From the IMG/VR virus record IMGVR_UViG_2778261693_000004, positions 1-16,397 of that record: 16,397 nucleotides of DNA; one strand, written 5' to 3'. This document shows, piece after piece, positions 1 through 16,158 of this stretch. Made by a program: the position numbers and the translations under genes. Position 1 is the stretch's first letter; every line of letters starts with the position of its first letter. The DNA is from a virus (lineage: Duplodnaviria > Heunggongvirae > Uroviricota > Caudoviricetes). The notes below the pieces were generated by a model. It was not told the DNA's origin. It ran no database searches and saw only the letters and a list, made by a program, of their open reading frames with translations.

Positions 1-1
1 G

Positions 2-166
2 GCATCCAACGCCATTCATGGCCATATCAATGATTTTCTGGTGCGTACCGGGTTGAGAAGCGGTGTAAGTGAACTGCAGTTGCCATGTTTTACGGCAGTG
101 AGAGCAGAGATAGCGCTGATGTCCGGCGGTGCTTTTGCCGTTACGCACCACCCCGTCAGTAGCTGA
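2..166 (+). CDS. 3' end of a plus-strand CDS running off the left edge; by P1 synteny possibly the C-terminus of the type III restriction subunit Res
   Basis: Frame 2 is open from the window edge to TGA at 164-166 (…[31 protein letters not shown]). It converges on the mat-position gene as res does in P1. I do not recognise the residues themselves. Confidence 0.3.
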
Positions 167-501
167 ACAGGAGGGACAGCTGATAGAAACAGAAGCCACT
201 GGAGCACCTCAAAAACACCATCATACACTAAATCAGTAAGTTGGCAGCATCACCAGCCTCATTTTGATGTCATTATTAGCAATTTAAAAAAGTTATGTCC
301 GAATATCATCGCTGAAGGCGTCGAAAACATTGATTGTCATAAGTTATCAAAAGGGATAGGGCTATGGGGCACTCAGGGATATTTTTTCCCATCAATTCCG
401 CTGACGGAGATTGAGTCCATAGATAGTAAGTGGCTATCAGATTTATGAGATGCAGAGAGTTAGGATATTGATATGAACATCTAAGCACCTCATTACTGTG
501 C

Positions 502-1803: not shown

Positions 1804-1820
1804 CGATCTATTAGAGCAAT
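1804..1820 (-). promoter_or_regulatory. C1 repressor operator (Op2-like) in the ref promoter
   Basis: cgatctATTAGAGCAAT on the plus strand matches the reverse complement of ATTGCTCTAATAAATTT at 13/17. A perfect TATAAT lies on the minus strand at 1797-1802. Confidence 0.65.
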
Positions 1821-3841: not shown

Positions 3842-3858
3842 AGAATTATTAGAGCAAT
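3842..3858 (-). promoter_or_regulatory. C1 operator (Op99-like) upstream of coi
   Basis: agaattATTAGAGCAAT, 15/17 to the reverse-complement consensus. Confidence 0.7.
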
Positions 3859-3924: not shown

Positions 3925-3941
3925 ATTGCTCTAATAAATTA
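3925..3941 (+). promoter_or_regulatory. C1 operator (Op99-like) upstream of coi, opposite orientation to the previous site
   Basis: ATTGCTCTAATAAATTa, 16/17 to consensus. Confidence 0.75.
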
Positions 3942-4179: not shown

Positions 4180-4389
4180 ATGGCTTTCATTCAACCAACC
4201 ATCGACGACGTTAGACATTGCTCTAACGCTTTATCTGTAGACCCTGCCGAAACCGACGCTGCCCGCACCATTGCTGAACACTACTCAAAGATATCCAATC
4301 AGGACTACCGCATCACCCAAGACGACCTGGATGACCTCACTGACACAATCGAATATCTCATGGCAACTAACCAGTTAGCCTCACAATAA
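4180..4389 (+). CDS. coi: Coi, C1 inactivator
   Basis: 69 aa, the length I recall for P1 Coi. Sits directly upstream of c1 with flanking C1 operators. GAGG Shine-Dalgarno. Confidence 0.75.
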   Translation: MAFIQPTIDDVRHCSNALSVDPAETDAARTIAEHYSKISNQDYRITQDDLDDLTDTIEYLMATNQLASQ

Positions 4390-4405
4390 ATGCACTAATA
4401 AATCT
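4389..4405 (+). promoter_or_regulatory. C1 operator-like site between coi and c1
   Basis: aATGCaCTAATAAATcT, 14/17 to consensus. Confidence 0.5.
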
Positions 4406-4499: not shown

Positions 4500-5351
4500 A
4501 TGATAAATTATGTCTACGGCGAACAACTGTACCAGGAGTTCGTCAGCTTCAGGGATCTCTTTCTAAAAAAAGCTGTTGCACGCGCCCAACACGTTGATGC
4601 CGCCAGCGACGGTCGTCCTGTTCGCCCGGTTGTCGTTCTGCCGTTCAAAGAAACGGACAGCATTCAGGCTGAAATTGATAAATGGACTTTAATGGCGCGG
4701 GAACTGGAACAGTACCCAGACCTCAATATCCCAAAGACTATTTTATATCCAGTGCCTAACATCCTTCGCGGTGTACGTAAGGTTACAACTTATCAGACAG
4801 AAGCTGTGAACAGCGTCAACATGACCGCTGGCCGCATTATTCATCTGATTGATAAGGATATTCGCATCCAAAAAAGCGCGGGGTTCAATGAGCACAGTGC
4901 GAAATACATAGAGAACCTGGAAGCAACAAAAGAGCTAATGAAGCAGTACCCGGAGGATGAAAAATTCCGTATGCGCGTACACGGCTTTAGCGAAACAATG
5001 CTGCGCGTCCACTACATTTCCAGTAGCCCTAACTACAATGATGGTAAATCAGTTAGTTACCATGTGCCACTGTGTGGCGTGTTTATCTGCGATGAAACCC
5101 TCCGTGATGGAATCATCATCAACGGTGAATTCGAGAAAGCAAAATTTAGCCTTTATGACTCCATAGAACCGATCATCTGCGACCGCTGGCCGCAGGCAAA
5201 AATATATCGCCTGGCAGATATTGAAAATGTAAAAAAACAAATTGCCATCACTCGCGAAGAGAAAAAGGTCAAATCAGCCGCATCAGTTACGCGCAGTCGT
5301 AAAACTAAGAAGGGGCAGCCAGTAAACGACAACCCCGAAAGCGCGCAATAA
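4500..5351 (+). CDS. c1: C1 prophage repressor
   Basis: 283 aa, the length I recall for P1 C1. GGAGGAGG Shine-Dalgarno. Follows coi, about 0.7 kb from loxP. Window carries nine copies of its operator motif. Confidence 0.85.
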   Translation: MINYVYGEQLYQEFVSFRDLFLKKAVARAQHVDAASDGRPVRPVVVLPFKETDSIQAEIDKWTLMARELEQYPDLNIPKTILYPVPNILRGVRKVTTYQTEAVNSVNMTAGRIIHLIDKDIRIQKSAGFNEHSAKYIENLEATKELMKQYPEDEKFRMRVHGFSETMLRVHYISSSPNYNDGKSVSYHVPLCGVFICDETLRDGIIINGEFEKAKFSLYDSIEPIICDRWPQAKIYRLADIENVKKQIAITREEKKVKSAASVTRSRKTKKGQPVNDNPESAQ

Positions 5352-5354
5352 ATT

Positions 5355-5376
5355 ATGCCCGGCATCAACCGGGCAT
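5355..5376. terminator. Hairpin between convergent c1 and antirepressor genes, possible bidirectional terminator
   Basis: ATGCCCGG-catcaa-CCGGGCAT, 8-bp stem, with A/T-rich flanks. Confidence 0.4.
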
Positions 5377-5383
5377 TCTTCCA

Positions 5384-6529
5384 TTATTCAGCCGCCACCG
5401 GTTTTAACAAGCCAGCATCGAGCAGTTTACGCGTCAACCACTGTTGTCCTTTCCCCGTTAATTGGGGCGTCAGCCGTATCTGGTAGCCATCTTCATCATC
5501 CAGCACCACTTCTTTCACTGTGAAATATCCGGCGTTTATGTACTGCTGGAACGGCACATTTTTACGCCCGCCGGACGCTATCAGAATGCCGTTCTCCCGT
5601 AACCAGGCAAACAGCGCGTTTTGCTTCAGCCCAACAACCTTTGCAAAATTACCAATCAGGATCCCCTTAGCCACTGATACACGGTCGGCAAAATCGACCT
5701 TGGGGGCTGCGGCCACCAGTTGTTGATTTAGCTGGTGGGCCTTCTGTTCCAGTAGCTGCTTTTGTTCAGCCAGCTCGGCAGCCAGGCGCAAGGCTTCAGG
5801 TAGTGTTTGGGGGATTGCGACCGGTTGCTGTTCTTTTTGCCGGAAGTAGCTGTCTTCCAGTTTTTCAAAGAATGCCCATGCTTCATCTGTGTTTACGATC
5901 TTAGACATGCGTGCCGCTCCGCGTTCGGCCCAAAGAATTACCTGGCTTGTATATTTGCTAACCAGGTGACTAGTAGTCACCAGCCTTTTAAATTCCTTTA
6001 ATTTTTAACCAGTTAAGAGATAGTAATGCTTACCTTCTTCAAAGCGATCGGAGTTGCGAGACAAATTTTTACGAATATTAGCTTCATCGGTTCCATACCC
6101 CTTAGCAAGAGTTTCGGTCGTTACTACACGCACTCCCAGCCATTCCAGAACGGGAATTTCATCAGACTGATTCTGAACAACCACCAGCTCTGATTCCTGA
6201 ACTGAAGTTGCATGAATTTTTTCTGATTTAACGTTAGTTGCTTTCATTCTGTGTGCCTCCTTGCGTGCTTCGGCTGCGACGGTTGCGTAATTCAGATGAC
6301 CCTGTTCGAGCAGGTATTCACGGATATCGGTCACAGCGATAGCCTTTAAGCGCAGATAAACATCGCGCTTATCGACATCCAGATGCGGGTATTCCTTTTC
6401 AAGAATTGCTGCGAGTTCTTTCGCTGATAGAAGAGATTTAGTGCGGATCATGTAATCCGCAATCTCGTACGATGTTATTCGTGAGTGATTTATTTCCATG
6501 AAGTGGCGTCCCTGCCAGTTAAGTAACAT
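5384..6529 (-). pseudogene. Antirepressor-like gene (ORF6N/Rha-type N-terminal domain plus KilA-C/ANT C-terminal domain) split by an in-frame TAA at 6005-6007
   Basis: ORFs 6005-6529 and 5384-5980 are in the same frame. The upstream ORF stops mid-domain (…SDRFEEGKHYYLLTG*) and the domain continues after the stop (KLKEFKRLVTTSHLV…TDEAWAFFEKLEDSYF). The downstream part carries a KilA-C-like motif (GNFAKVVGLKQNALFAWLRENGIL…PFQQYINAGYF) and begins only at a GTG. Confidence 0.6.
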
Positions 6530-6599
6530 CCTGTCACCTACTGATTAGCCCATGTCAACTAATCAACGTCGAATATAATACCATCGATTAAAGAAATAG

Positions 6600-6616
6600 C
6601 AATACATTAGAGCAAT
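6600..6616 (-). promoter_or_regulatory. C1 operator-like site upstream of the antirepressor-like gene
   Basis: caatacATTAGAGCAAT, 14/17 to the reverse-complement consensus, 71 bp upstream of the ATG at 6529. Confidence 0.55.
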
Positions 6617-6617
6617 T

Positions 6618-7664
6618 TTATCTAACGCTCGACGAATGACTTGTGATAGCGCCGACTCCAAGCGCGTAATCAAAGAACAATCGTTGATGCATCGCCAGCC
6701 TACCGTGCGTCTTCTCCCAATTATCGCGGTCACGCTCAATATCACGCTGGCATGACTGGCACAGAGGAATAGCATAAATGTCATGCGCGCATAATCGACT
6801 ATAACGAACGATATAAGGCGTAATGTGAGCGCCAGCTCCCGCCGCTCCACACCCACAGCATGGACGGGAAGCAACAAAGTCCATGTACTCAGGTAATTTT
6901 AGCGATTGCAGTTTTGGTATTTTGAAATGCGCCATACCTGGGTCGGAGTCAACATCCACAGGGCATACTTTTGCACGCATCGGCGCGGCGCGTTCTTCCA
7001 TCATCTGAACATATGCTGTAGCGCGATCGTCATACGGGCGAATATCCGCCTCTTTCAGTGGTCCGCTATCCTGCGGAGTAGCCTTCATCTTATTTATTAT
7101 TGATATGCGGCAGACTTCTTCCGGCATCAGGTGCATCATGTTGCGCATGAAAGCCCACCAGCACAGCTCCTGAATACTTAAATCATGGCTATTTGAAAGG
7201 CCCATTTCCTGACGGGCGACATCCAGTATCCAGTTAACGCGATTATTGTGCAGCGTTTCTTTCAGCTCATTAAAACCACGCATCCGGTAATGGTTATCGT
7301 GATGCCAGCACAACAACACCGCGCTATTGTCTCGTTCAGCGTGGACAATATGGTTGTCACACCAACTACGATCTGCGGCCTGGCATTGACCCTCTTTCCT
7401 ACGCAACCACGCCACCAGCGCGTCAATTCCACCAATACGGCGAAACAGTTCATCGCTGTTAAAAAACGGCTGCAACGCCTCATTTGTTGCCATGGTTTGC
7501 TCGGTAACAACGAGGCCGTCTTCCATGTGCTCGATTAACTCACGCGGCACCGGCTCCATAATAAATTTACGGCCAGCCTCCACCAGCTTTCTGACCTCCT
7601 GATCCACTTTGAACGTGGCGAGGCCAAGCTCTTTCTGTACAAAGGGAGTAATTACGGCTTTCAC
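6618..7664 (-). CDS. Hypothetical 348-aa protein with a C-terminal Cys/His cluster resembling the Ref HNH-like motif
   Basis: GTG start with AAGGTG Shine-Dalgarno 4 nt upstream. C-terminus …[42 protein letters not shown]. At the position I recall for P1 pdcB, but I do not recognise the sequence. Confidence 0.6.
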
Positions 7665-7691
7665 ATCACACCTTTAATCACTGATTGGGCT

Positions 7692-7871
7692 TTATCTGCT
7701 GCCCGACATTATCTGTTTAAGCACAACCATTTCCTGACGGCATAACACAGCAATAGCGGTCCTGGCACCAATTTGCTTACTAACCAGGTATTGCTTTATC
7801 TTGCGGCGACTCACGCCATCAAGAAGCATCTTTAACGCTTCACGGGACAATTTGTTGTATTTGCGTGCCAT
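7692..7871 (-). CDS. Small basic protein (59 aa) immediately downstream of doc
   Basis: ATG at 7869-7871, 4 nt after the doc stop (MARKYNKLSREALKMLLDGVSRRKIKQYL…). At the position I recall for P1 pdcA. Confidence 0.45.
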   Translation of the reverse strand: MARKYNKLSREALKMLLDGVSRRKIKQYLVSKQIGARTAIAVLCRQEMVVLKQIMSGSR

Positions 7872-7875
7872 TAAT

Positions 7876-8256
7876 CTACTCCGCAGAACCATACAATCTA
7901 CGTAACGTGGCGGCGACAGAAGATACAGATATCTCGCCAGTCGCAGCGCCTACAGTAAGGTCTGCCAGTTCAGGTGAATCAAATACCTGCACCCCATTAC
8001 GGCGTAGAAATAGCAGCGCACTGTTTAGCGCGGTACGCTTATTGGCATCATTGAATATATGCCCTCTCGCTGTAGCCACCAGGTAGGTGGCGGAGACTTC
8101 GAAAAGGTCGGTGATCTCTTCGTAGGCAACTCTGGCCTGAACTCTCCCGATAATGGCCTCTGCCCTACCCGGATCTGACATTCCCGGCAGGCCGCCGTAG
8201 CGGTTTATATTCGCATCATGAAGCGCAATAAGTTCTTCCGGTGATATATGCCTCAT
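7876..8256 (-). CDS. doc: Doc toxin (Fic-fold kinase) of the phd-doc addiction module
   Basis: 126 aa ([22 protein letters not shown]…[23 protein letters not shown]…), recognised as P1 Doc. Its start overlaps the phd stop. Confidence 0.95.
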
Positions 8257-8477
8257 TATCGGTTAACCAGTTCCTTGTTGGTGGAGTCCAGGGTGTCAAA
8301 CAGGGATGCAAATTCAGCATCCAGCGCCGCTTTTTTGTAGGCTTCGAAAGTAGCCTTGCTGACAATTACTGCTGGCTCACGGCCTCTGCGGGTGATTTCA
8401 ACCTCTTCCCCGGCTTCAACATTGTTGAGCACTTCAGAAAGGTTGCCGCGCGCGGTACGGAAGTTAATGGATTGCAT
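8256..8477 (-). CDS. phd: Phd antitoxin
   Basis: 73 aa from the ATG at 8475-8477 ([49 protein letters not shown]…), recognised as P1 Phd. GAGGTG Shine-Dalgarno. Confidence 0.93.
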
Positions 8478-8484
8478 AAACACC

Positions 8485-8510
8485 TCGTGTACTCGTTATG
8501 TGTACACAAT
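8485..8510. promoter_or_regulatory. Phd/Doc autoregulatory operator with palindromic GTGTACAC sites
   Basis: Perfect palindrome GTGTACAC at 8501-8508 and a one-mismatch copy at 8487-8494, between a -10-like TATAAT on the minus strand and the phd Shine-Dalgarno. Confidence 0.55.
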
Positions 8511-8549
8511 TATAAACTTCACAGGCATAAAGCACCAGCACTTTGCAGC

Positions 8550-8939
8550 TTAAATCACCGGACAATCATCAAATTCCCCACTTCGGGCATCATTAATGAC
8601 ATGAGTGATCACACCAAACACAGCATTACTCCCCGTGCATCCATCGTCATCCACTGGTAACGCCTCTTTCTTCCCGGTGCTTAAATCCTCCAGGTGCTGG
8701 CGCGGATACTTTCGGTATCTCTTTATGCGATATTCACCCTCCATAGCGCACACAAGCAGCGAACCATCAACTGGAGTAAGCGAAGAATCAACCACCAGCA
8801 AAGCACCCTGCAATATTCCCTCACGGTGATGGCTATCAGCTGCCCGCATGAAGTAGGTTGCTGATGGATGTCTAATTATCTGCTGATCAAGAGAAATTCG
8901 GCTTTCAACATAATCCGCCGCAGGAGAAGGGAAACCCAT
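8550..8939 (-). CDS. humD: HumD, UmuD'-like SOS mutagenesis protein
   Basis: 129 aa starting [30 protein letters not shown]…, which aligns with the processed form of E. coli UmuD ([30 protein letters not shown]…); C-terminal [12 protein letters not shown] matches FGVVIHVVKAMR. Confidence 0.9.
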   Translation of the reverse strand: [129 protein letters not shown]

Positions 8940-8958
8940 AGCGTTTTACCTCAAAAAT

Positions 8959-8974
8959 ACTGTTTATCTATACA
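8959..8974. promoter_or_regulatory. LexA box (CTGT-N8-ACAG) in the humD promoter
   Basis: taCTGTttatctatACAGca, about 20 bp upstream of the humD Shine-Dalgarno and ATG, overlapping a plausible TTGCAC/TAATGT promoter on the minus strand. Confidence 0.65.
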
Positions 8975-9113
8975 GCATACATTAAAGAAGCACCTTTGGT
9001 GCAAACGCGTTATGTACATCAACCACCGCTGATGATTTTTGTGCGCTTTGCTACTATTCATCACCGCGGGATCAGCGTAACCTCGTTGCCAATCAGTTAA
9101 TAAGGAATTAGCT

Positions 9114-11113: not shown

Positions 11114-11476
11114 TCAGCTTTCGTTGGCATTTAACTTCGTCTTTGCTTTCTCCACCAGCAACTTCCAGATGCCTATTTCATTAGCAGCCGCCTTGATGGC
11201 GGCATAAAAAGCATCTTGCTGATCGTAACGCTGGATCTGTTTTTTCAGTTTTGCCTCCACCAATTTAATTTCATTACGTGCTTTCTGAAGCCGCATCACC
11301 GCCCGGTTACGTCTGTTCTTGTATAGCGTGTTAATCTCTGACAATTGCTTTAATTTACCAGCCTGACTGCGGATTATCGCCTCCCTGGCTTCTGCCGTGC
11401 GTCTCATCTGATCTCTTAAGAGTTCACCGTTTTCGATAATTCTTTCAAGGTGTTTGATGTGATCTGCAACTCTCAT
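11114..11476 (-). CDS. Hypothetical 120-aa basic, probably coiled-coil protein; last gene of a five- or six-gene minus-strand operon
   Basis: Start overlaps the stop of the upstream 293-aa gene. Lys/Arg/Glu-rich heptad-like sequence. Confidence 0.6.
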   Translation of the reverse strand: MRVADHIKHLERIIENGELLRDQMRRTAEAREAIIRSQAGKLKQLSEINTLYKNRRNRAVMRLQKARNEIKLVEAKLKKQIQRYDQQDAFYAAIKAAANEIGIWKLLVEKAKTKLNANES

Positions 11477-12354
11477 ACTTCACCCTCGCTTGTATCACCA
11501 GCGTCCACCAACGACAATAAAGCCCTGGCCATCTTATGAACCAACAGTGCATCAATAATGCCAAGCGTATGCCCCGGCTTAATGTTTAATGCTGCCTCAA
11601 GATGACACCTTTCCAGACCGCTTTTCTCGGCTTGTTTATGATGATATGGCGTAATAACGTCGCCCAAAACACGGCTAATTCTTTCTCGTAATTGCTGGGT
11701 GCCAGCACACTTGATCGCTGTATCGTGGAGACGGTTAACCAGTTCGCGATAAACATGCGGCTTAATGCGGATACGTTCACCGGTGACGCCCTTTCCTGGC
11801 GTAGGCACCGAACTATCCGGAATATCCGGATAGTTGCCAGCCAGTCTACGCAAAACAGCCTTAATTGCATCAATACGGTCATCATCAACTTTTTCTACAA
11901 TATTGGAATTTAAATACTTCGAAGCCTTGCTATGCCAATCGCTGGTTTTAGGGTCTTGTCCATCCATCAAACGCCAAGCTTCAGCGATTAACTCATAGCC
12001 AGTAACAGTGGCTTCCTGCGCATCACCAATCAGTTGTGTGATCTCTCTTTCAAGCATGCTTAGAGCGTTAGGCATTGGTTTTTCTTCCGGTACTACTGGA
12101 ACGGGGGGAGCGGCGTAGACCTCAATAATTCCATTATCAATAGGCCATTCTCCATCCTTGAGGTAGTCACTTGTGCCGTCAACTTGCTGTTCTGCAATGT
12201 GGAATGCACCTATTGGTTTTGCTTCCAGTGATGCCAGAGCAATTCGTGCCAGTTCTTCCGCTTCTTCTGCTGGCAGTACAACGTTGCTACCAGGTCCGTA
12301 TGTTTCGCGCCACTGCTTGATTGTCAGTAGTCGCTCTTTGGTAATAGTGGTCAT
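11473..12354 (-). CDS. Hypothetical 293-aa protein
   Basis: Long ORF overlapping both neighbours by 4 nt (operon coupling). Sequence not recognised. Confidence 0.65.
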   Translation of the reverse strand: MTTITKERLLTIKQWRETYGPGSNVVLPAEEAEELARIALASLEAKPIGAFHIAEQQVDGTSDYLKDGEWPIDNGIIEVYAAPPVPVVPEEKPMPNALSMLEREITQLIGDAQEATVTGYELIAEAWRLMDGQDPKTSDWHSKASKYLNSNIVEKVDDDRIDAIKAVLRRLAGNYPDIPDSSVPTPGKGVTGERIRIKPHVYRELVNRLHDTAIKCAGTQQLRERISRVLGDVITPYHHKQAEKSGLERCHLEAALNIKPGHTLGIIDALLVHKMARALLSLVDAGDTSEGEV

Positions 12355-12866
12355 GCCGCGTTTCCTTCTTTCTTATTAACAATTACACCGTCATATATTT
12401 CATTAAGGTGCCCTCTCAACTCCATGCGCCTTAATGCAGATAACATGTAATCGCATTCAACCTGCTTATTTCCAGTAAATGGCTTATCGTCAGGATTACC
12501 CCAACAGCAATTACCCTTGGGCCACCCATGTACTTTCCGTACTCTTCCGTTAACAACGTGAAGTAATCCCCAGCCAGGTGGTAAATCCTCAATTGAAATA
12601 ATTCCCGGCTCACTAATAAAGAATCGCCAGTCGCCCATTCCAAGAGACGGATTTTTACGAAAACGCTTTTTTCTATCTGCCAACAAGTCAGCACGAGAAC
12701 ACTTCGCCTCTATCAGGCATGATGCTGAATTTCTGAATCCCATAGCATCTGGCTGTTCTCCGGTACTGGTTACAGCTATAAAGCGGTCATGAAAACAAAC
12801 CTTGAACCCGTTGCGCTTAAGGAACTTGTACGCAATCTGACAGAGTTCGCGGTGTGTTAACGCCAT
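12351..12866 (-). CDS. Putative PD-(D/E)xK-fold nuclease (MmcB-like)
   Basis: 171 aa with a D…E-x-K signature (…GEQPDAMGFRNSASCLIEAKCSRADLLAD…). ATG overlaps the stop of the upstream PP-loop ORF. Confidence 0.55.
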   Translation of the reverse strand: MALTHRELCQIAYKFLKRNGFKVCFHDRFIAVTSTGEQPDAMGFRNSASCLIEAKCSRADLLADRKKRFRKNPSLGMGDWRFFISEPGIISIEDLPPGWGLLHVVNGRVRKVHGWPKGNCCWGNPDDKPFTGNKQVECDYMLSALRRMELRGHLNEIYDGVIVNKKEGNAA

Positions 12867-12867
12867 A

Positions 12868-13234
12868 TCACTCTCCTTTGATGCGAATGCCAGCGTCAGA
12901 CATCATATGCAGATACTCAACTGCATCCTGAACCCATTGACCGCCAATCCCGTAATAGCGATGCGTAATGATGTCGATAGTTACTAACGGGTCTTGTTCG
13001 ATTAACTTCCGCAGAAACTCTTCCAGGTCACCAGTGCAGTGCTTGATGACAGGAGTTTTCCCAGGATGGCGAACAACAAGAAACTGATTTCCGACTTCAC
13101 GGACTTCGTTGCTTTCCAGTTCTGCTATCCATAAAAATGAAATGGACGCTAACGCCAGCTTTTCGCTGTGCTTCCATCAGATGAACGAGATAAGCCGATG
13201 TTCGTCCACCTGAAAAGCTGACGACTTGATGCAT
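12868..13234 (-). pseudogene. PP-loop (SGGxxS) ATP-pyrophosphatase-like gene, apparently frameshifted
   Basis: ATG at 13232-13234 gives MHQVVSFSGGRTSAYLVHLMEAQRKAGVSVHFIFMDSRTGKQRSP*. A second frame overlapping it by about 80 nt continues to 12868 (…NQFLVVRHPGKTPVIKHCTGDLEEFLRKLIEQDPLVTIDII…). The switch lies near a T5 run / GGAAAG around 13100-13135. Confidence 0.45.
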
Positions 13235-13243
13235 ACTCACGGT

Positions 13244-13822
13244 TTATTCCTGAATGCGCTTAAACTCGATTACCCATACCAACGGGTTAGATAGCCAGTT
13301 ATCCTGCCCGTAAATACTGCGCCAGATATCACCAAAACCAACGCGATAAACAGCTTCAGATGGCGTAATCTTGTACGTCGCCGGAGTTGCGCCTTCTGCT
13401 TTAGCATCTTCCTCGCTCATGTCATGCAGCCGTTCCACACGCACGTCGGTAATTTCCAAAAGAATGCGCGATGCCCAGCGCGGCATGTGAATTGATGGCG
13501 TCCACTTTTCTGATACTGGTTTATTACAAACCTCGACCGGAACCCGGTGCGTTTGTTCTGTCCAGGAGTTACGCACGCTTGCGCGATAAACCAGCGTTGC
13601 GACGTCCGTCGCTTTGCCATGTACCCGGTAGGTTTCGCGAACCCAAATACGATCGCCCGGTTGACCATATGGACAATGCTTGGCAAGCAACTCTGCGGCC
13701 ACTGCCCGTCCATAGAATTTTTCTTCAACAATCCTGCGAGTCTGTGTTTTATTCCCGCCAAGAATTGCCCGGACCATCTCATCGTTAAAAATCATGCCGC
13801 GCTCTTTCACTTCGCCTTTCAT
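13244..13822 (-). CDS. ASCH-domain-like protein
   Basis: 192 aa. N-terminal MIFNDEMVRAILGGNKTQTRR fits the ASCH G-x-K-x-x-T-x-R signature. GGGGG Shine-Dalgarno. Confidence 0.6.
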   Translation of the reverse strand: MKGEVKERGMIFNDEMVRAILGGNKTQTRRIVEEKFYGRAVAAELLAKHCPYGQPGDRIWVRETYRVHGKATDVATLVYRASVRNSWTEQTHRVPVEVCNKPVSEKWTPSIHMPRWASRILLEITDVRVERLHDMSEEDAKAEGATPATYKITPSEAVYRVGFGDIWRSIYGQDNWLSNPLVWVIEFKRIQE

Positions 13823-13831
13823 GCATCCCCC

Positions 13832-13918
13832 TTACCCATGTGCGACGATGCCGCCAAAAGTGATAGAGAACAGCCAGAAATAGATCGCGGCCATAATGAT
13901 TTTGAATGCCGTGTTCAT
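13832..13918 (-). CDS. Small hydrophobic peptide (28 aa), first ORF of the operon
   Basis: MNTAFKIIMAAIYFWLFSITFGGIVAHG with AGGAG 9 nt upstream. Its stop lies 9 nt before the ASCH gene's ATG. Confidence 0.3.
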   Translation of the reverse strand: MNTAFKIIMAAIYFWLFSITFGGIVAHG

Positions 13919-13945
13919 ATTTTCAGCTCCTGTGATTGATTGGAT

Positions 13946-13977
13946 ACATGCCGCGCCTTGCGGCATGTTTTTATTTT
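13946..13977 (+). terminator. Plus-strand rho-independent terminator in the leader of a minus-strand operon
   Basis: ACATGCCGC-gcctt-GCGGCATGT (9-bp GC-rich stem) followed by TTTTTATTTT. No plus-strand gene upstream. Confidence 0.45.
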
Positions 13978-13991
13978 CACTTTCTCTGTTT

Positions 13992-14008
13992 TAAAAATCA
14001 TTATTTAT
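13992..14008 (-). promoter_or_regulatory. C1 operator in front of the ASCH/PP-loop/nuclease operon
   Basis: ttATTTATTAGAGCAAT, 15/17 to the reverse-complement consensus. Confidence 0.7.
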
Positions 14009-14016
14009 TAGAGCAA

Positions 14017-14523
14017 TTATTGTTGATGGAGAAGCGCGTTTTCATACTCCCTGACCATTAACGTAAGCACGCCGTGCCTCCTGAAAACACGCGCCACTTC
14101 AATCTTATCTTCCAGCGCGAACGCAATTTTGCTTAGACCAATTTTCTTAAGGAGATCAATCTTTGCTGGACCGTCATTTCTGTCATCGGTGGCGGGACGC
14201 ATAGATAGCAAAGGCTCTGCCCCATTTGTTACGTGCTTACGCAACCAGGCTCGTGTTTTATCCCTGGCTATCTCACAGCGCCCGGTTACAAACCAGAGCG
14301 TGTAAATGCTGGACAACTGGCGCACCATATCAATAACTGGAGTGATGGAAGCATCAGTGTCACAGGCAAGGTTAAACTCGTTCCAGTGCTCTGTTAATGC
14401 ACCGTTGCCAGGCGGTGGAAGTAAATGCAGCCTGTCTTCCGTTGCCTCCGATATCGTTCCATCAATATCTACTATGACAATGTACGGACGTTCCTGGTGT
14501 GCGTGTTTATTGAAAATACTCAA
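14017..14523 (-). CDS. HAD-superfamily phosphatase (polynucleotide 3'-phosphatase-like DxDGT motif)
   Basis: 168 aa with motif I VIVDIDGTIS. TTG start with GAGGAGG Shine-Dalgarno 4 nt upstream. Confidence 0.7.
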   Translation of the reverse strand: MSIFNKHAHQERPYIVIVDIDGTISEATEDRLHLLPPPGNGALTEHWNEFNLACDTDASITPVIDMVRQLSSIYTLWFVTGRCEIARDKTRAWLRKHVTNGAEPLLSMRPATDDRNDGPAKIDLLKKIGLSKIAFALEDKIEVARVFRRHGVLTLMVREYENALLHQQ

Positions 14524-16092: not shown

Positions 16093-16109
16093 ATTGCTCT
16101 AATAAAAAA
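16093..16109 (+). promoter_or_regulatory. C1 operator, proximal site of an inverted pair
   Basis: ATTGCTCTAATAAAaaa, 14/17 to consensus. Confidence 0.6.
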
Positions 16110-16141
16110 CGTTATGAGTGTACATCACGTTTTAAAAATAT

Positions 16142-16158
16142 GGAATTATTAGAGCAAT
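16142..16158 (-). promoter_or_regulatory. C1 operator, distal site of the inverted pair
   Basis: ggaattATTAGAGCAAT, 14/17 to the reverse-complement consensus. Confidence 0.6.

What the first reader, a model, noticed from the sequence alone, without database searches (positions are those of the whole stretch)
5384..6616. Antirepressor-like gene split by a single in-frame ochre codon, fronted by its own C1 operator
The ORF6N/Rha-type domain is cut mid-domain by TAA at 6005-6007 and resumes in the same frame with a recognisable continuation, followed by a KilA-C domain; the downstream ORF begins only at GTG. An inactivated antirepressor would lock the element into the repressed state. It could instead be a sequencing error or a naturally two-part protein.
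Basis: seen in the sequence. Interest (0 to 1): 0.6.

Follow-up and report, generated by a model that had tools for sequence, protein, structure and literature searches.

The report
Decayed lpa–antirepressor fusion pseudogene
The "split antirepressor" is a real but ordinary pseudogene in a decayed phage-P1-derived E. coli plasmid: a 3.8-kb deletion fused the start of the late-gene activator lpa, with its C1-controlled promoter, to a truncated antirepressor gene, and a later point mutation added a stop codon.

Summary
On the minus strand, a TAA at 6007..6005 interrupts an ORF6N domain at profile position 48 of 86. The same frame continues into the rest of ORF6N and a KilAC/ANT domain.

The gene is not a simple antirepressor with its own operator. 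Codons 1-66 (6529..6332) are the 5' end of P1 lpa. The operator at 6600-6616 and the promoter are P1's Olpa/Plpa, base for base.

A deletion of about 3.76 kb joined lpa codon 66 in frame to codon 56 of an Ant1/Ant2-type gene. In intact relatives that gene lies between pacB and c1. The deletion removed the lpa 3' end, pacA, pacB, isrK/C4 RNAs, an icd-like gene and the ant 5' end.

A sister plasmid (TUM9803) has the same junction with an intact 381-aa chimera and TCA (Ser) at the stop position. Fourteen intact homologues carry a sense codon there. So the order is deletion first, then TCA>TAA.

The stop is not a sequencing error. It occurs in three MRE162 clone assemblies and at least ten other samples. 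RefSeq already annotates it as a pseudogene ("internal stop; missing N-terminus").

The host plasmid has lost lpa and its packaging genes, and no tail, kilA or repL gene is annotated, so ant inactivation does not "lock" it. Low interest.

The parts
6600..6616 (-). C1 operator Olpa (formerly Op94), ATTGCTCTAATGTATTG
   Evidence: 17 of 17 identical to the annotated Olpa of P1 AF234172. It is one of 8 operator-like sites in the window against 0.10 expected.
6575..6602 (-). Sigma-70 promoter Plpa (-35 TTGCTA at 6602..6597, -10 TATTAT at 6580..6575), overlapped by Olpa
   Evidence: Both hexamers are identical to the annotated P1 Plpa. The consensus scan also finds it.
6332..6529 (-). lpa codons 1-66, the 5' remnant of the late promoter activator gene
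   Evidence: 98-100% nucleotide identity to lpa of P1, P7, SJ46, RCS47 and JL22. Pfam BPP1_LPA positions 1-60 of 131. The protein is identical to P1 Lpa through V66.
6331..6332 (-). Deletion junction: last lpa base is 6332, first ant base is 6331. In frame and at a codon boundary.
   Evidence: Three-way DNA comparison of the window with P1 lpa and with JL22/RCS47/L008 ant. BLAST breakpoints. The missing DNA is RCS47 locus L001 5033..8795, 3763 bp.
6008..6331 (-). ant codons 56-163: the tail of the Ant1-specific region, the Ant2-like start, and the first half of ORF6N
   Evidence: 90-97% nucleotide identity to the ant/roi gene next to c1 in JL22, RCS47 and pBS15R-A_1. ORF6N positions 4-48 of 86. 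Protein alignments A2 and A3.
6245..6262 (-). Internal Ant2-like translation start: ATG at 6247..6245 preceded by AAGGAGG at 6262..6256
   Evidence: Read directly from the sequence. The 'KEAHRM' motif and its position are conserved in P1 Ant1. That Ant2 starts here is inferred from P1's overlapping in-frame ant1/ant2 genes (PMC6906374).
6005..6007 (-). Premature TAA, replacing Ser164 (TCA) of the 370-aa Ant. On the + strand, position 6006 is T where relatives have G.
   Evidence: The sister plasmid TUM9803 and pBS15R-A_1 have TCA, JL22 has TTA, RCS47 has GAT. The same TAA is in pMRE162 and in at least 10 other samples.
5384..6004 (-). Remaining ant codons 165-370 plus the natural stop: second half of ORF6N, linker, KilAC/ANT domain. 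Gene callers start it at GTG 5980 or ATG 5908.
   Evidence: PF03374 ANT, E 1e-31. In-frame homology to intact Ant runs straight across the stop. Both alternative calls, 198 aa and 174 aa, appear in public assemblies.
5355..5376 (-). Terminator-like hairpin between the convergent ant and c1 genes
   Evidence: 9-bp stem with 6 G-C pairs. Conserved in JL22 and RCS47.
4500..5351 (+). c1 repressor gene, intact and convergent with the ant remnant
   Evidence: 283 aa, 282 of 283 residues identical to P1 C1.100. Annotated as C1 in pMRE162.

Best explanation
The region is a two-hit pseudogene in a P1-derived plasmid that has stopped being a phage.

Ancestral state (shown in relatives). The order was pdcB - lpa - pacA - pacB - isrK - C4 RNA - icd-like - ant(370 aa), convergent with c1. 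That is a second, immI-like antirepressor module next to c1.

Hit 1 (shown). An illegitimate deletion of about 3.76 kb, with no microhomology at the join, linked lpa codon 66 to ant codon 56 in frame. It removed the lpa 3' end, the pac late promoter, pacA with the pac site, pacB, isrK/C4, icd-like and the first 55 ant codons. The result is a 381-aa Lpa(1-66)::Ant(56-370) chimera transcribed from the C1-repressed Plpa/Olpa. The chimera is still intact in plasmid pMTY9803_untypable1 and on 168 public contigs.

Hit 2 (shown). In a sub-lineage that includes this window and pMRE162, a single C>A change turned Ser164 (TCA) into TAA inside the ORF6N domain.

Consequences (inferred):
- When C1 repression lifts, the locus can make only a 174-aa Lpa'-Ant' stub and an 80-aa Ant2-like stub.
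- At best it also makes a little of a KilAC-only fragment, by reinitiation at GTG 5980 or ATG 5908.
- No full-length antirepressor and no functional Lpa is made.
- The stop most likely reflects relaxed selection on a gene that is useless in an element lacking late-gene activation and packaging. Mild selection against an antirepressor that lost its C4 antisense brake is also possible.
For: Identity of the parts:
- Pfam gives BPP1_LPA + ORF6N + ANT.
- megablast splits the region into an ant/c1 block (window 5300-6331) and an lpa/pdcB block (6332-6700).
- The DNA alignment shows the switch at GCTGTG|ACCGAT.

Ancestral arrangement:
- Annotated in RCS47, JL22 and pBS15R-A_1.
- Rfam finds C4 and isrK in intact relatives and none in the window.
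- P1 immI has the same C4-icd-ant1 layout, and its Ant1 shares the N- and C-terminal regions.

Order of events:
- TUM9803 has the identical junction and differs at only 2 of 1401 bases. One of the two is G instead of T at window position 6006, giving TCA.
- The intact chimera is on 168 contigs and the truncated product on 35.

Reality of the stop:
- 100% identity in three independently held MRE162 clones, assembled from Illumina plus ONT reads.
- Present in at least 10 other assemblies or sequencing runs with differing flanks.

Decay context:
- PGAP flags the same stretch of pMRE162 as a pseudogene: 'internal stop; incomplete; missing N-terminus'.
- pMRE162 is rich in IS elements and carries bcs, dcuC and autotransporter cargo. 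It has no annotated terminase, tail, kilA or repL, and no second lpa or ant copy.
- Conversion of P1-like phage-plasmids into plasmids by gene loss is documented (PMC10879196).
Against: - The intact chimera is about five times as common as the TAA allele. So the chimera is neither strongly harmful nor obviously dead before the stop; it could be functional.
- No expression or protein data exist. I could not test whether the KilAC-only fragment is made or retains any activity.
- The window's plasmid is not identical to pMRE162. It keeps about 1.6 kb that pMRE162 lacks, so its full gene content is inferred from relatives, not seen.
Confidence: 0.88

Rival explanations
1. Adaptive inactivation. 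After the deletion removed the C4 antisense RNA and icd leader that normally hold ant in check, ant was controlled only by C1, the very protein it inactivates. That is a self-reinforcing loop. Any lapse of repression would then derepress the remaining C1 regulon, so nonsense alleles of ant were positively selected.
For: - Three different nonsense mutations hit this ant gene in three different pacAB-deletion lineages that also lack an intact C4. They are S164* here, about Q207* in the p20170604CC-1 class (whose deletion cuts C4), and Y42* in pSF10EC-2.
- A further lineage (pWL164-2) deleted ant codons 1 to about 100.
Against: - The intact chimera is commoner than the TAA allele, 168 against 35 contigs.
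- pHI1B-o111 lost C4 yet keeps a full-length ant behind Plpa.
- The examples were found with a query that favours such deletions, so no rate comparison with intact phage-plasmids was made.
- Neutral decay predicts the same pattern.
Confidence: 0.15
2. A naturally two-part, or still functional, antirepressor. The downstream 198- or 174-aa KilAC protein is translated from its own start and works alone, or together with the upstream fragment.
For: - The downstream frame is still open over 206 codons with an intact ANT domain.
- ATG 5908 has a GGAG 8 nt upstream.
- Gene callers predict it as a gene.
Against: - All 14 intact homologues are single ORFs with a sense codon at this position.
- The stop cuts ORF6N at position 48 of 86 rather than between domains.
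- GTG 5980 has only a weak, badly spaced AAGG upstream.
- The stop is a 1-nt difference from a sister plasmid that is otherwise nearly identical, so it is a recent mutation and not a conserved architecture.
Confidence: 0.05
3. A sequencing or assembly error at 6005-6007, or programmed readthrough of the TAA.
For: None was found. It is only the general prior that a single-base stop can be an error.
Against: - The same TAA is in three hybrid-assembled, polished MRE162 clone genomes with 37-126x Illumina coverage.
- It is also in four other NCBI assemblies and six SRA-derived assemblies.
- The exact truncated product is on record on 35 contigs.
- No recoding signal is evident, and a UAA stop codon is not known to be read through efficiently in E. 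coli (established knowledge).
Confidence: 0.02

Closest known systems
Antirepressor module inserted between pacB and c1 in P1-like phage-plasmids (ant of RCS47, roi of JL22; noted for pTZ20_1P in PMC6906374)
   Same: - 90-97% nucleotide identity over ant codons 56-370.
- The same position, convergent with c1, and the same terminator hairpin.
- The same ORF6N + KilAC domains.
   Different: - The window lacks the first 55 codons and the upstream icd-like gene, C4 and isrK RNAs.
- It is fused to lpa instead, and it carries TAA at Ser164.
P1 immI antirepressor Ant1/Ant2 (c4-icd-ant1/2; X17512, AF234172)
   Same: - Homologous Ant1-specific N-terminal region, with the conserved 'KEAHRM' and a Shine-Dalgarno sequence at the presumed Ant2 start.
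- About 85% nucleotide identity in the KilAC C-terminal part.
- In intact relatives, the same C4 RNA - icd - ant layout.
   Different: - The middle domain differs: ORF6N here, an unrelated segment in P1 Ant.
- The location is next to c1, not at immI.
- In the window the C4/icd control is gone, and the gene is truncated and interrupted.
P1 lpa (gene 10) with Plpa/Olpa (Op94)
   Same: The operator, -35, -10 and codons 1-66 are essentially identical to P1.
   Different: Only 66 of 150 codons remain, which is Pfam profile positions 1-60 of 131. The rest was deleted, so this cannot be a functional late-promoter activator.
[quoted passage not shown]
   Same: - The P1 plasmid backbone and immunity genes are kept: repA/parAB, cre, c1, coi, phd/doc.
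- Phage late and packaging genes are lost, and IS elements and cargo are gained.
   Different: This particular lpa'::'ant junction and the TAA allele are not described in the papers I could search. The identical pseudogene is, however, flagged by PGAP in RefSeq.

Membership tests
Ant1/Ant2-type P1 antirepressor (c4-icd-ant module) | C-terminal KilAC/ANT domain | tested here: met
   PF03374, E 1e-31, profile positions 2-106 of 108 in the downstream ORF. About 85% nucleotide identity to the P1 ant 3' part.
Ant1/Ant2-type P1 antirepressor (c4-icd-ant module) | Complete Ant1 N-terminal region homologous to P1 Ant1 | tested here: not met
   Codons 1-55 are deleted and replaced by Lpa 1-66. There is no BLASTP similarity between the Lpa and Ant1 N-termini.
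Ant1/Ant2-type P1 antirepressor (c4-icd-ant module) | In-frame internal (Ant2) start with its own ribosome-binding site | tested here: met
   ATG at 6247 with AAGGAGG at 6262..6256. The position is conserved with P1's 'KEAHRM'. That this is the Ant2 start is an inference.
Ant1/Ant2-type P1 antirepressor (c4-icd-ant module) | Upstream C4 antisense RNA and icd leader gene controlling ant | tested here: not met
   Rfam finds C4 (RF01695) in the intact relatives L008 and L006 and in P1 immI, but none in the window. The icd-like gene is absent.
Ant1/Ant2-type P1 antirepressor (c4-icd-ant module) | Uninterrupted reading frame | tested here: not met
   TAA at 6007..6005, where 14 intact homologues have Ser, Leu or Asp.
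Ant1/Ant2-type P1 antirepressor (c4-icd-ant module) | Binds and inactivates the C1 repressor | not testable with these tools
   This is a biochemical property. It is known for P1 Ant1/Ant2 (cited in PMC5786510) and has not been tested for this ORF6N-type paralogue.
ORF6N domain (PF10543) | Full-length match to the domain profile in one polypeptide | tested here: not met
   Positions 4-48 of 86 lie before the stop. Positions 4-86 match only if the stop is read as a sense codon.
Lpa late promoter activator (PF25716) | Full-length Lpa domain (about 131 profile positions, 150 aa) | tested here: not met
   Only profile positions 1-60 are present. P1 Lpa matches positions 1-130.
C1-controlled operator/promoter (Olpa/Plpa of P1) | 17-nt asymmetric operator overlapping the -35 of a sigma-70 promoter, matching ATTGCTCTAATAAATTT | tested here: met
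   17 of 17 identical to the annotated P1 Olpa, with identical -35 and -10 hexamers. Operator-like sites are enriched in the window, 8 against 0.10 expected. C1 binding itself was not tested.
Pseudogene (nonsense plus truncation) | Premature stop and missing terminus relative to intact orthologues, reproducible in independent assemblies | tested here: met

The most novel reading that the evidence does not exclude
The in-frame Lpa(1-66)::Ant(56-370) chimera is a functional, rewired antirepressor. It would be placed directly under C1 control, giving a C1-Ant double-negative switch with no C4 RNA brake. The recurrent, independent nonsense or truncating lesions of this ant in pacAB-deleted P1-derived plasmids (S164* here, about Q207*, Y42*, and the deletion of codons 1 to about 100) would then be selected steps that stabilise the phage-to-plasmid transition.
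Probability: 0.15. Interest if true: 0.4.

Novelty: already known. Interest (0 to 1): 0.15.

Why it matters
It matters little on its own. It is one more decayed gene in a phage-plasmid that has become a plain plasmid, a process already described for P1-like elements.

Three things are useful:
- A corrected annotation. The 174-aa 'ORF6N domain-containing protein' (WP_244565656.1) and the 381-aa 'phage antirepressor Ant' (WP_001653129.1) are Lpa'-'Ant deletion chimeras, not native proteins.
- A caution. An operator in front of an ORF may have been brought there by a deletion.
- A modest lead. The lpa-pacAB segment is lost repeatedly through different junctions, often together with lesions in the neighbouring ant. 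This could be used to test whether losing the antirepressor is selected when phage-plasmids are domesticated.

Tried and rejected
1. **Homologous domain swap.** I asked whether the Lpa and Ant1 N-termini are homologous, which would make the fusion a like-for-like exchange. BLASTP found no alignment even at E <= 100, so I rejected the idea. The residues MAFFT lined up are not significant.
2. **Microhomology at the junction.** The bases flanking GTG|ACC do not match between the parents. A nearby 'CTG' is shared, but the join is essentially blunt illegitimate recombination.
3. **Genomic contexts of the intact chimera.** The spread of the intact chimera therefore rests on the cluster count and on the one complete plasmid, TUM9803.
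4. **Failed literature searches.** Two searches failed on term format and were re-run.
5. I did not run structure prediction, fold search or the large protein searches. Domain and near-identical DNA matches already settled the identity.
6. **Stop-codon readthrough or a suppressor.** I considered this, but nothing in the sequence supports it and it cannot be tested here.

Full report
**What is in the sequence**

All relevant genes lie on the minus strand.
- An ORF runs from ATG 6529 to a TAA at 6007..6005 (174 aa).
- Eight codons later a GTG at 5980 opens a 198-aa ORF that ends at 5384.
- Both ORFs are in one frame, since 6529-5384+1 = 1146 nt.

- The upstream product carries ORF6N profile positions 4-48 of 86.
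- The downstream product carries a KilAC/ANT domain (E 1e-31).
- With the stop read as a sense codon, ORF6N becomes complete (positions 4-86, E 1.6e-16).

Residues 15-74 of the upstream ORF match the Lpa family (PF25716, profile positions 1-60 of 131). megablast against phage genomes splits the region into two blocks.
- Window 5300-6331 matches the c1 end plus an 'ant/roi' gene of the P1-like phages JL22 and RCS47.
- Window 6332-6700 matches lpa and the end of pdcB of P1, P7 and SJ46 at 98-100%.

In P1 the order is pdcB-lpa-pacA-pacB, convergent with c1. In RCS47, JL22 and pBS15R-A_1 an extra module sits between pacB and c1. Rfam shows that this module consists of isrK, C4 antisense RNA, an icd-like gene and a 370-aa ant.

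That layout matches P1's immI region, which is C4-icd-ant1/2. The 370-aa Ant shares P1 Ant1's N-terminal region, the conserved 'KEAHRM' at the presumed Ant2 start, and the KilAC C-terminus. Its middle domain differs: it is ORF6N. The presence of an ant between pacB and c1 in some P1-like plasmids is already noted in the literature (PMC6906374).

**The junction**

Side-by-side DNA shows the window following P1 lpa through ...GCTATCGCTGTG and then switching to ant at ACCGATATCCGTG....
- The last lpa base is 6332, the end of codon 66.
- The first ant base is 6331, the start of codon 56.
- The fusion is exactly in frame, with no microhomology at the join.
- The missing DNA corresponds to RCS47 locus L001 5033..8795, 3763 bp. 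In JL22 it is 3760 bp.

The deletion removed lpa codons 67-150, the pac late promoter, pacA with the pac site, pacB, isrK, C4, the icd-like gene and ant codons 1-55. No C4 or isrK is detectable in the window.

**The operator**

The site at 6600-6616 (ATTGCTCTAATGTATTG) is 17 of 17 identical to the annotated P1 operator Olpa (Op94). The -35 (TTGCTA) and -10 (TATTAT) hexamers are identical to P1's Plpa. Operator-like sites are strongly enriched in the window, 8 against 0.10 expected. The operator is therefore real, but it belongs to lpa. It fronts the ant remnant only because of the deletion.

**The stop codon**

Plasmid pMTY9803_untypable1 of strain TUM9803 has the identical junction. It differs from the window at two of 1401 bases, and one of these is window position 6006 (G instead of T). 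This gives TCA (Ser) instead of TAA and an intact 381-aa CDS, WP_001653129.1.

Fourteen intact homologues carry a sense codon at this position: Ser in 11, Leu in 2, Asp in 1. The frame downstream of the stop stays homologous residue by residue. P1 Ant1, aligned alongside them, also reads through this region, but its middle domain is too different for that column to be informative.

The order of events is therefore deletion first, then a single C>A transversion at Ser164.

The stop is not an artefact.
- It is present at 100% identity in the plasmids of three separately maintained clones of E. coli MRE162. That strain was isolated in 1949, and the genomes are Illumina plus ONT hybrid assemblies.
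- It is present in at least ten other assemblies or sequencing runs with differing flanks.
- Exact-sequence look-up finds the truncated product on 35 contigs and the intact chimera on 168.

NCBI's pipeline already annotates the identical stretch of pMRE162 as a pseudogene: 'phage antirepressor KilAC domain-containing protein; internal stop; incomplete; missing N-terminus'.

**Context**

The window is 99.97% identical to pMRE162 over 12.6 kb. pMRE162 is 76.9 kb.
- It keeps P1 plasmid and immunity functions: repA, parAB, cre, ref, coi, c1, phd/doc, humD, pdcAB.
- It is full of IS elements and cargo: cellulose synthase, dcuC, malic enzyme, a porin, an autotransporter.
- It has no annotated terminase, tail, kilA or repL gene, and no second copy of lpa or ant.

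This is the 'phage-plasmid becomes plasmid by gene loss' trajectory described for P1-like elements (PMC10879196). In the window, coi and c1 are intact.

**How it most likely works**

Shown: Plpa/Olpa, lpa codons 1-66, ant codons 56-163, TAA, then the rest of ant in frame.

Inferred:
- Transcription is C1-repressed.
- If transcription occurs, translation yields a 174-aa Lpa'-Ant' stub and, from the strong internal start (AAGGAGG-N8-ATG at 6247), an 80-aa Ant2-like stub.
- A KilAC-only fragment could arise by reinitiation at GTG 5980, which has a poor ribosome-binding site, or at ATG 5908 (GGAG-N8).
- There is no functional Lpa, because only 60 of 131 profile positions remain, and no full antirepressor.
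- The same deletion already abolished late-gene activation and packaging. The stop therefore does not 'lock' anything. It is best read as further decay.

**Rivals**

- A sequencing error is excluded, as shown above.
- A natural two-gene architecture is contradicted by the single-ORF homologues, by the mid-domain position of the stop, and by the 1-nt difference from a sister plasmid.
- Adaptive loss of ant after loss of its C4 brake cannot be excluded. I found independent lesions of this ant in other pacAB-deletion lineages: about Q207* in the p20170604CC-1 class (whose deletion cuts C4), Y42* in pSF10EC-2, and deletion of codons 1 to about 100 in pWL164-2.
- Against adaptive loss, the intact chimera outnumbers the TAA allele, and pHI1B-o111 lost C4 yet keeps ant intact. 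My sample is also biased by the query I used.

**Verdict**

The feature is real and correctly located, but it is ordinary. It is a chimeric, nonsense-mutated antirepressor remnant in a domesticated P1-derived plasmid, and it is already flagged as a pseudogene in RefSeq. Interest is low.

Noticed in passing
Loci L005, L006, L022, L023, L024, L025 compared with RCS47 locus L001 (window equivalent 6331/6332): At least seven different deletions remove pacB and all or most of pacA. Each has its own junction and only 0-4 nt of overlap. They join pdcB/lpa/pacA to the isrK-C4-icd-ant module in different E. coli plasmids. In RCS47 coordinates the deleted spans are 5033-8795 (this window), 5405-8810, 6143-8986, 5122-8891, 5517-8926, 5122-8615 and 4900-7794. 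My query favoured finding such cases, so the true frequency is unknown.
   Followed up: partly
L023 385-1503 (p20170604CC-1 class, about 13 records) and L024 385-1395 (pSF10EC-2): The same c1-proximal ant gene carries independent internal stops at other codons (about Q207* and Y42*) in other pacAB-deleted lineages. This could be relaxed selection or selection against an ant that lost C4 control.
   Followed up: partly
L022 385-1443 (pPK8568-122kb): This is a second, independent in-frame Lpa'::'Ant chimera, Lpa 1-34 joined to Ant 28-370. PGAP annotates it as an intact 352-aa 'antirepressor' starting at Lpa Met27.
   Followed up: partly
L008 3870-3957 and 4002-4080; L006 4473-4560 and 4605-4683: In intact relatives the ant module next to c1 carries both a C4 antisense RNA (RF01695) and an isrK-like RNA (RF01394). 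Protein annotation calls the C4 stretch an 'ash family protein'. These phage-plasmids therefore appear to have two immI-type modules.
   Followed up: partly
window 12860-14451: About 1.6 kb is present in the window but absent from pMRE162. It includes a 192-aa ORF (13244..13822, minus strand) and a C1-operator-like site at 14001-14017. Neighbouring ORFs that are pseudogenes in pMRE162 (window 11473..12354 and 12351..12866) are intact here. The window therefore comes from a less decayed sister plasmid.
   Followed up: no
window 1-255: An IS1 fragment (99.6% identical to the IS1 of RCS47) abuts the P1-like backbone. It truncates the EAL-domain gene that is complete in pMRE162.
   Followed up: no
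window 1804-1820, 3842-3858, 3925-3941, 4389-4405, 14001-14017, 16093-16109, 16142-16158: Seven further C1-operator-like sites with 3 or fewer mismatches to ATTGCTCTAATAAATTT (0.10 expected by chance). They include a facing pair at 16093-16158 and the sites around cre/coi/c1. The C1 regulon architecture survives in this decayed plasmid.
   Followed up: no
RefSeq proteins WP_244565656.1 (174 aa) and WP_001653129.1 (381 aa): Both are catalogued as ordinary proteins, 'ORF6N domain-containing protein' and 'phage antirepressor Ant'. They are in fact products of the lpa'::'ant deletion chimera, so the database names are misleading.
   Followed up: yes
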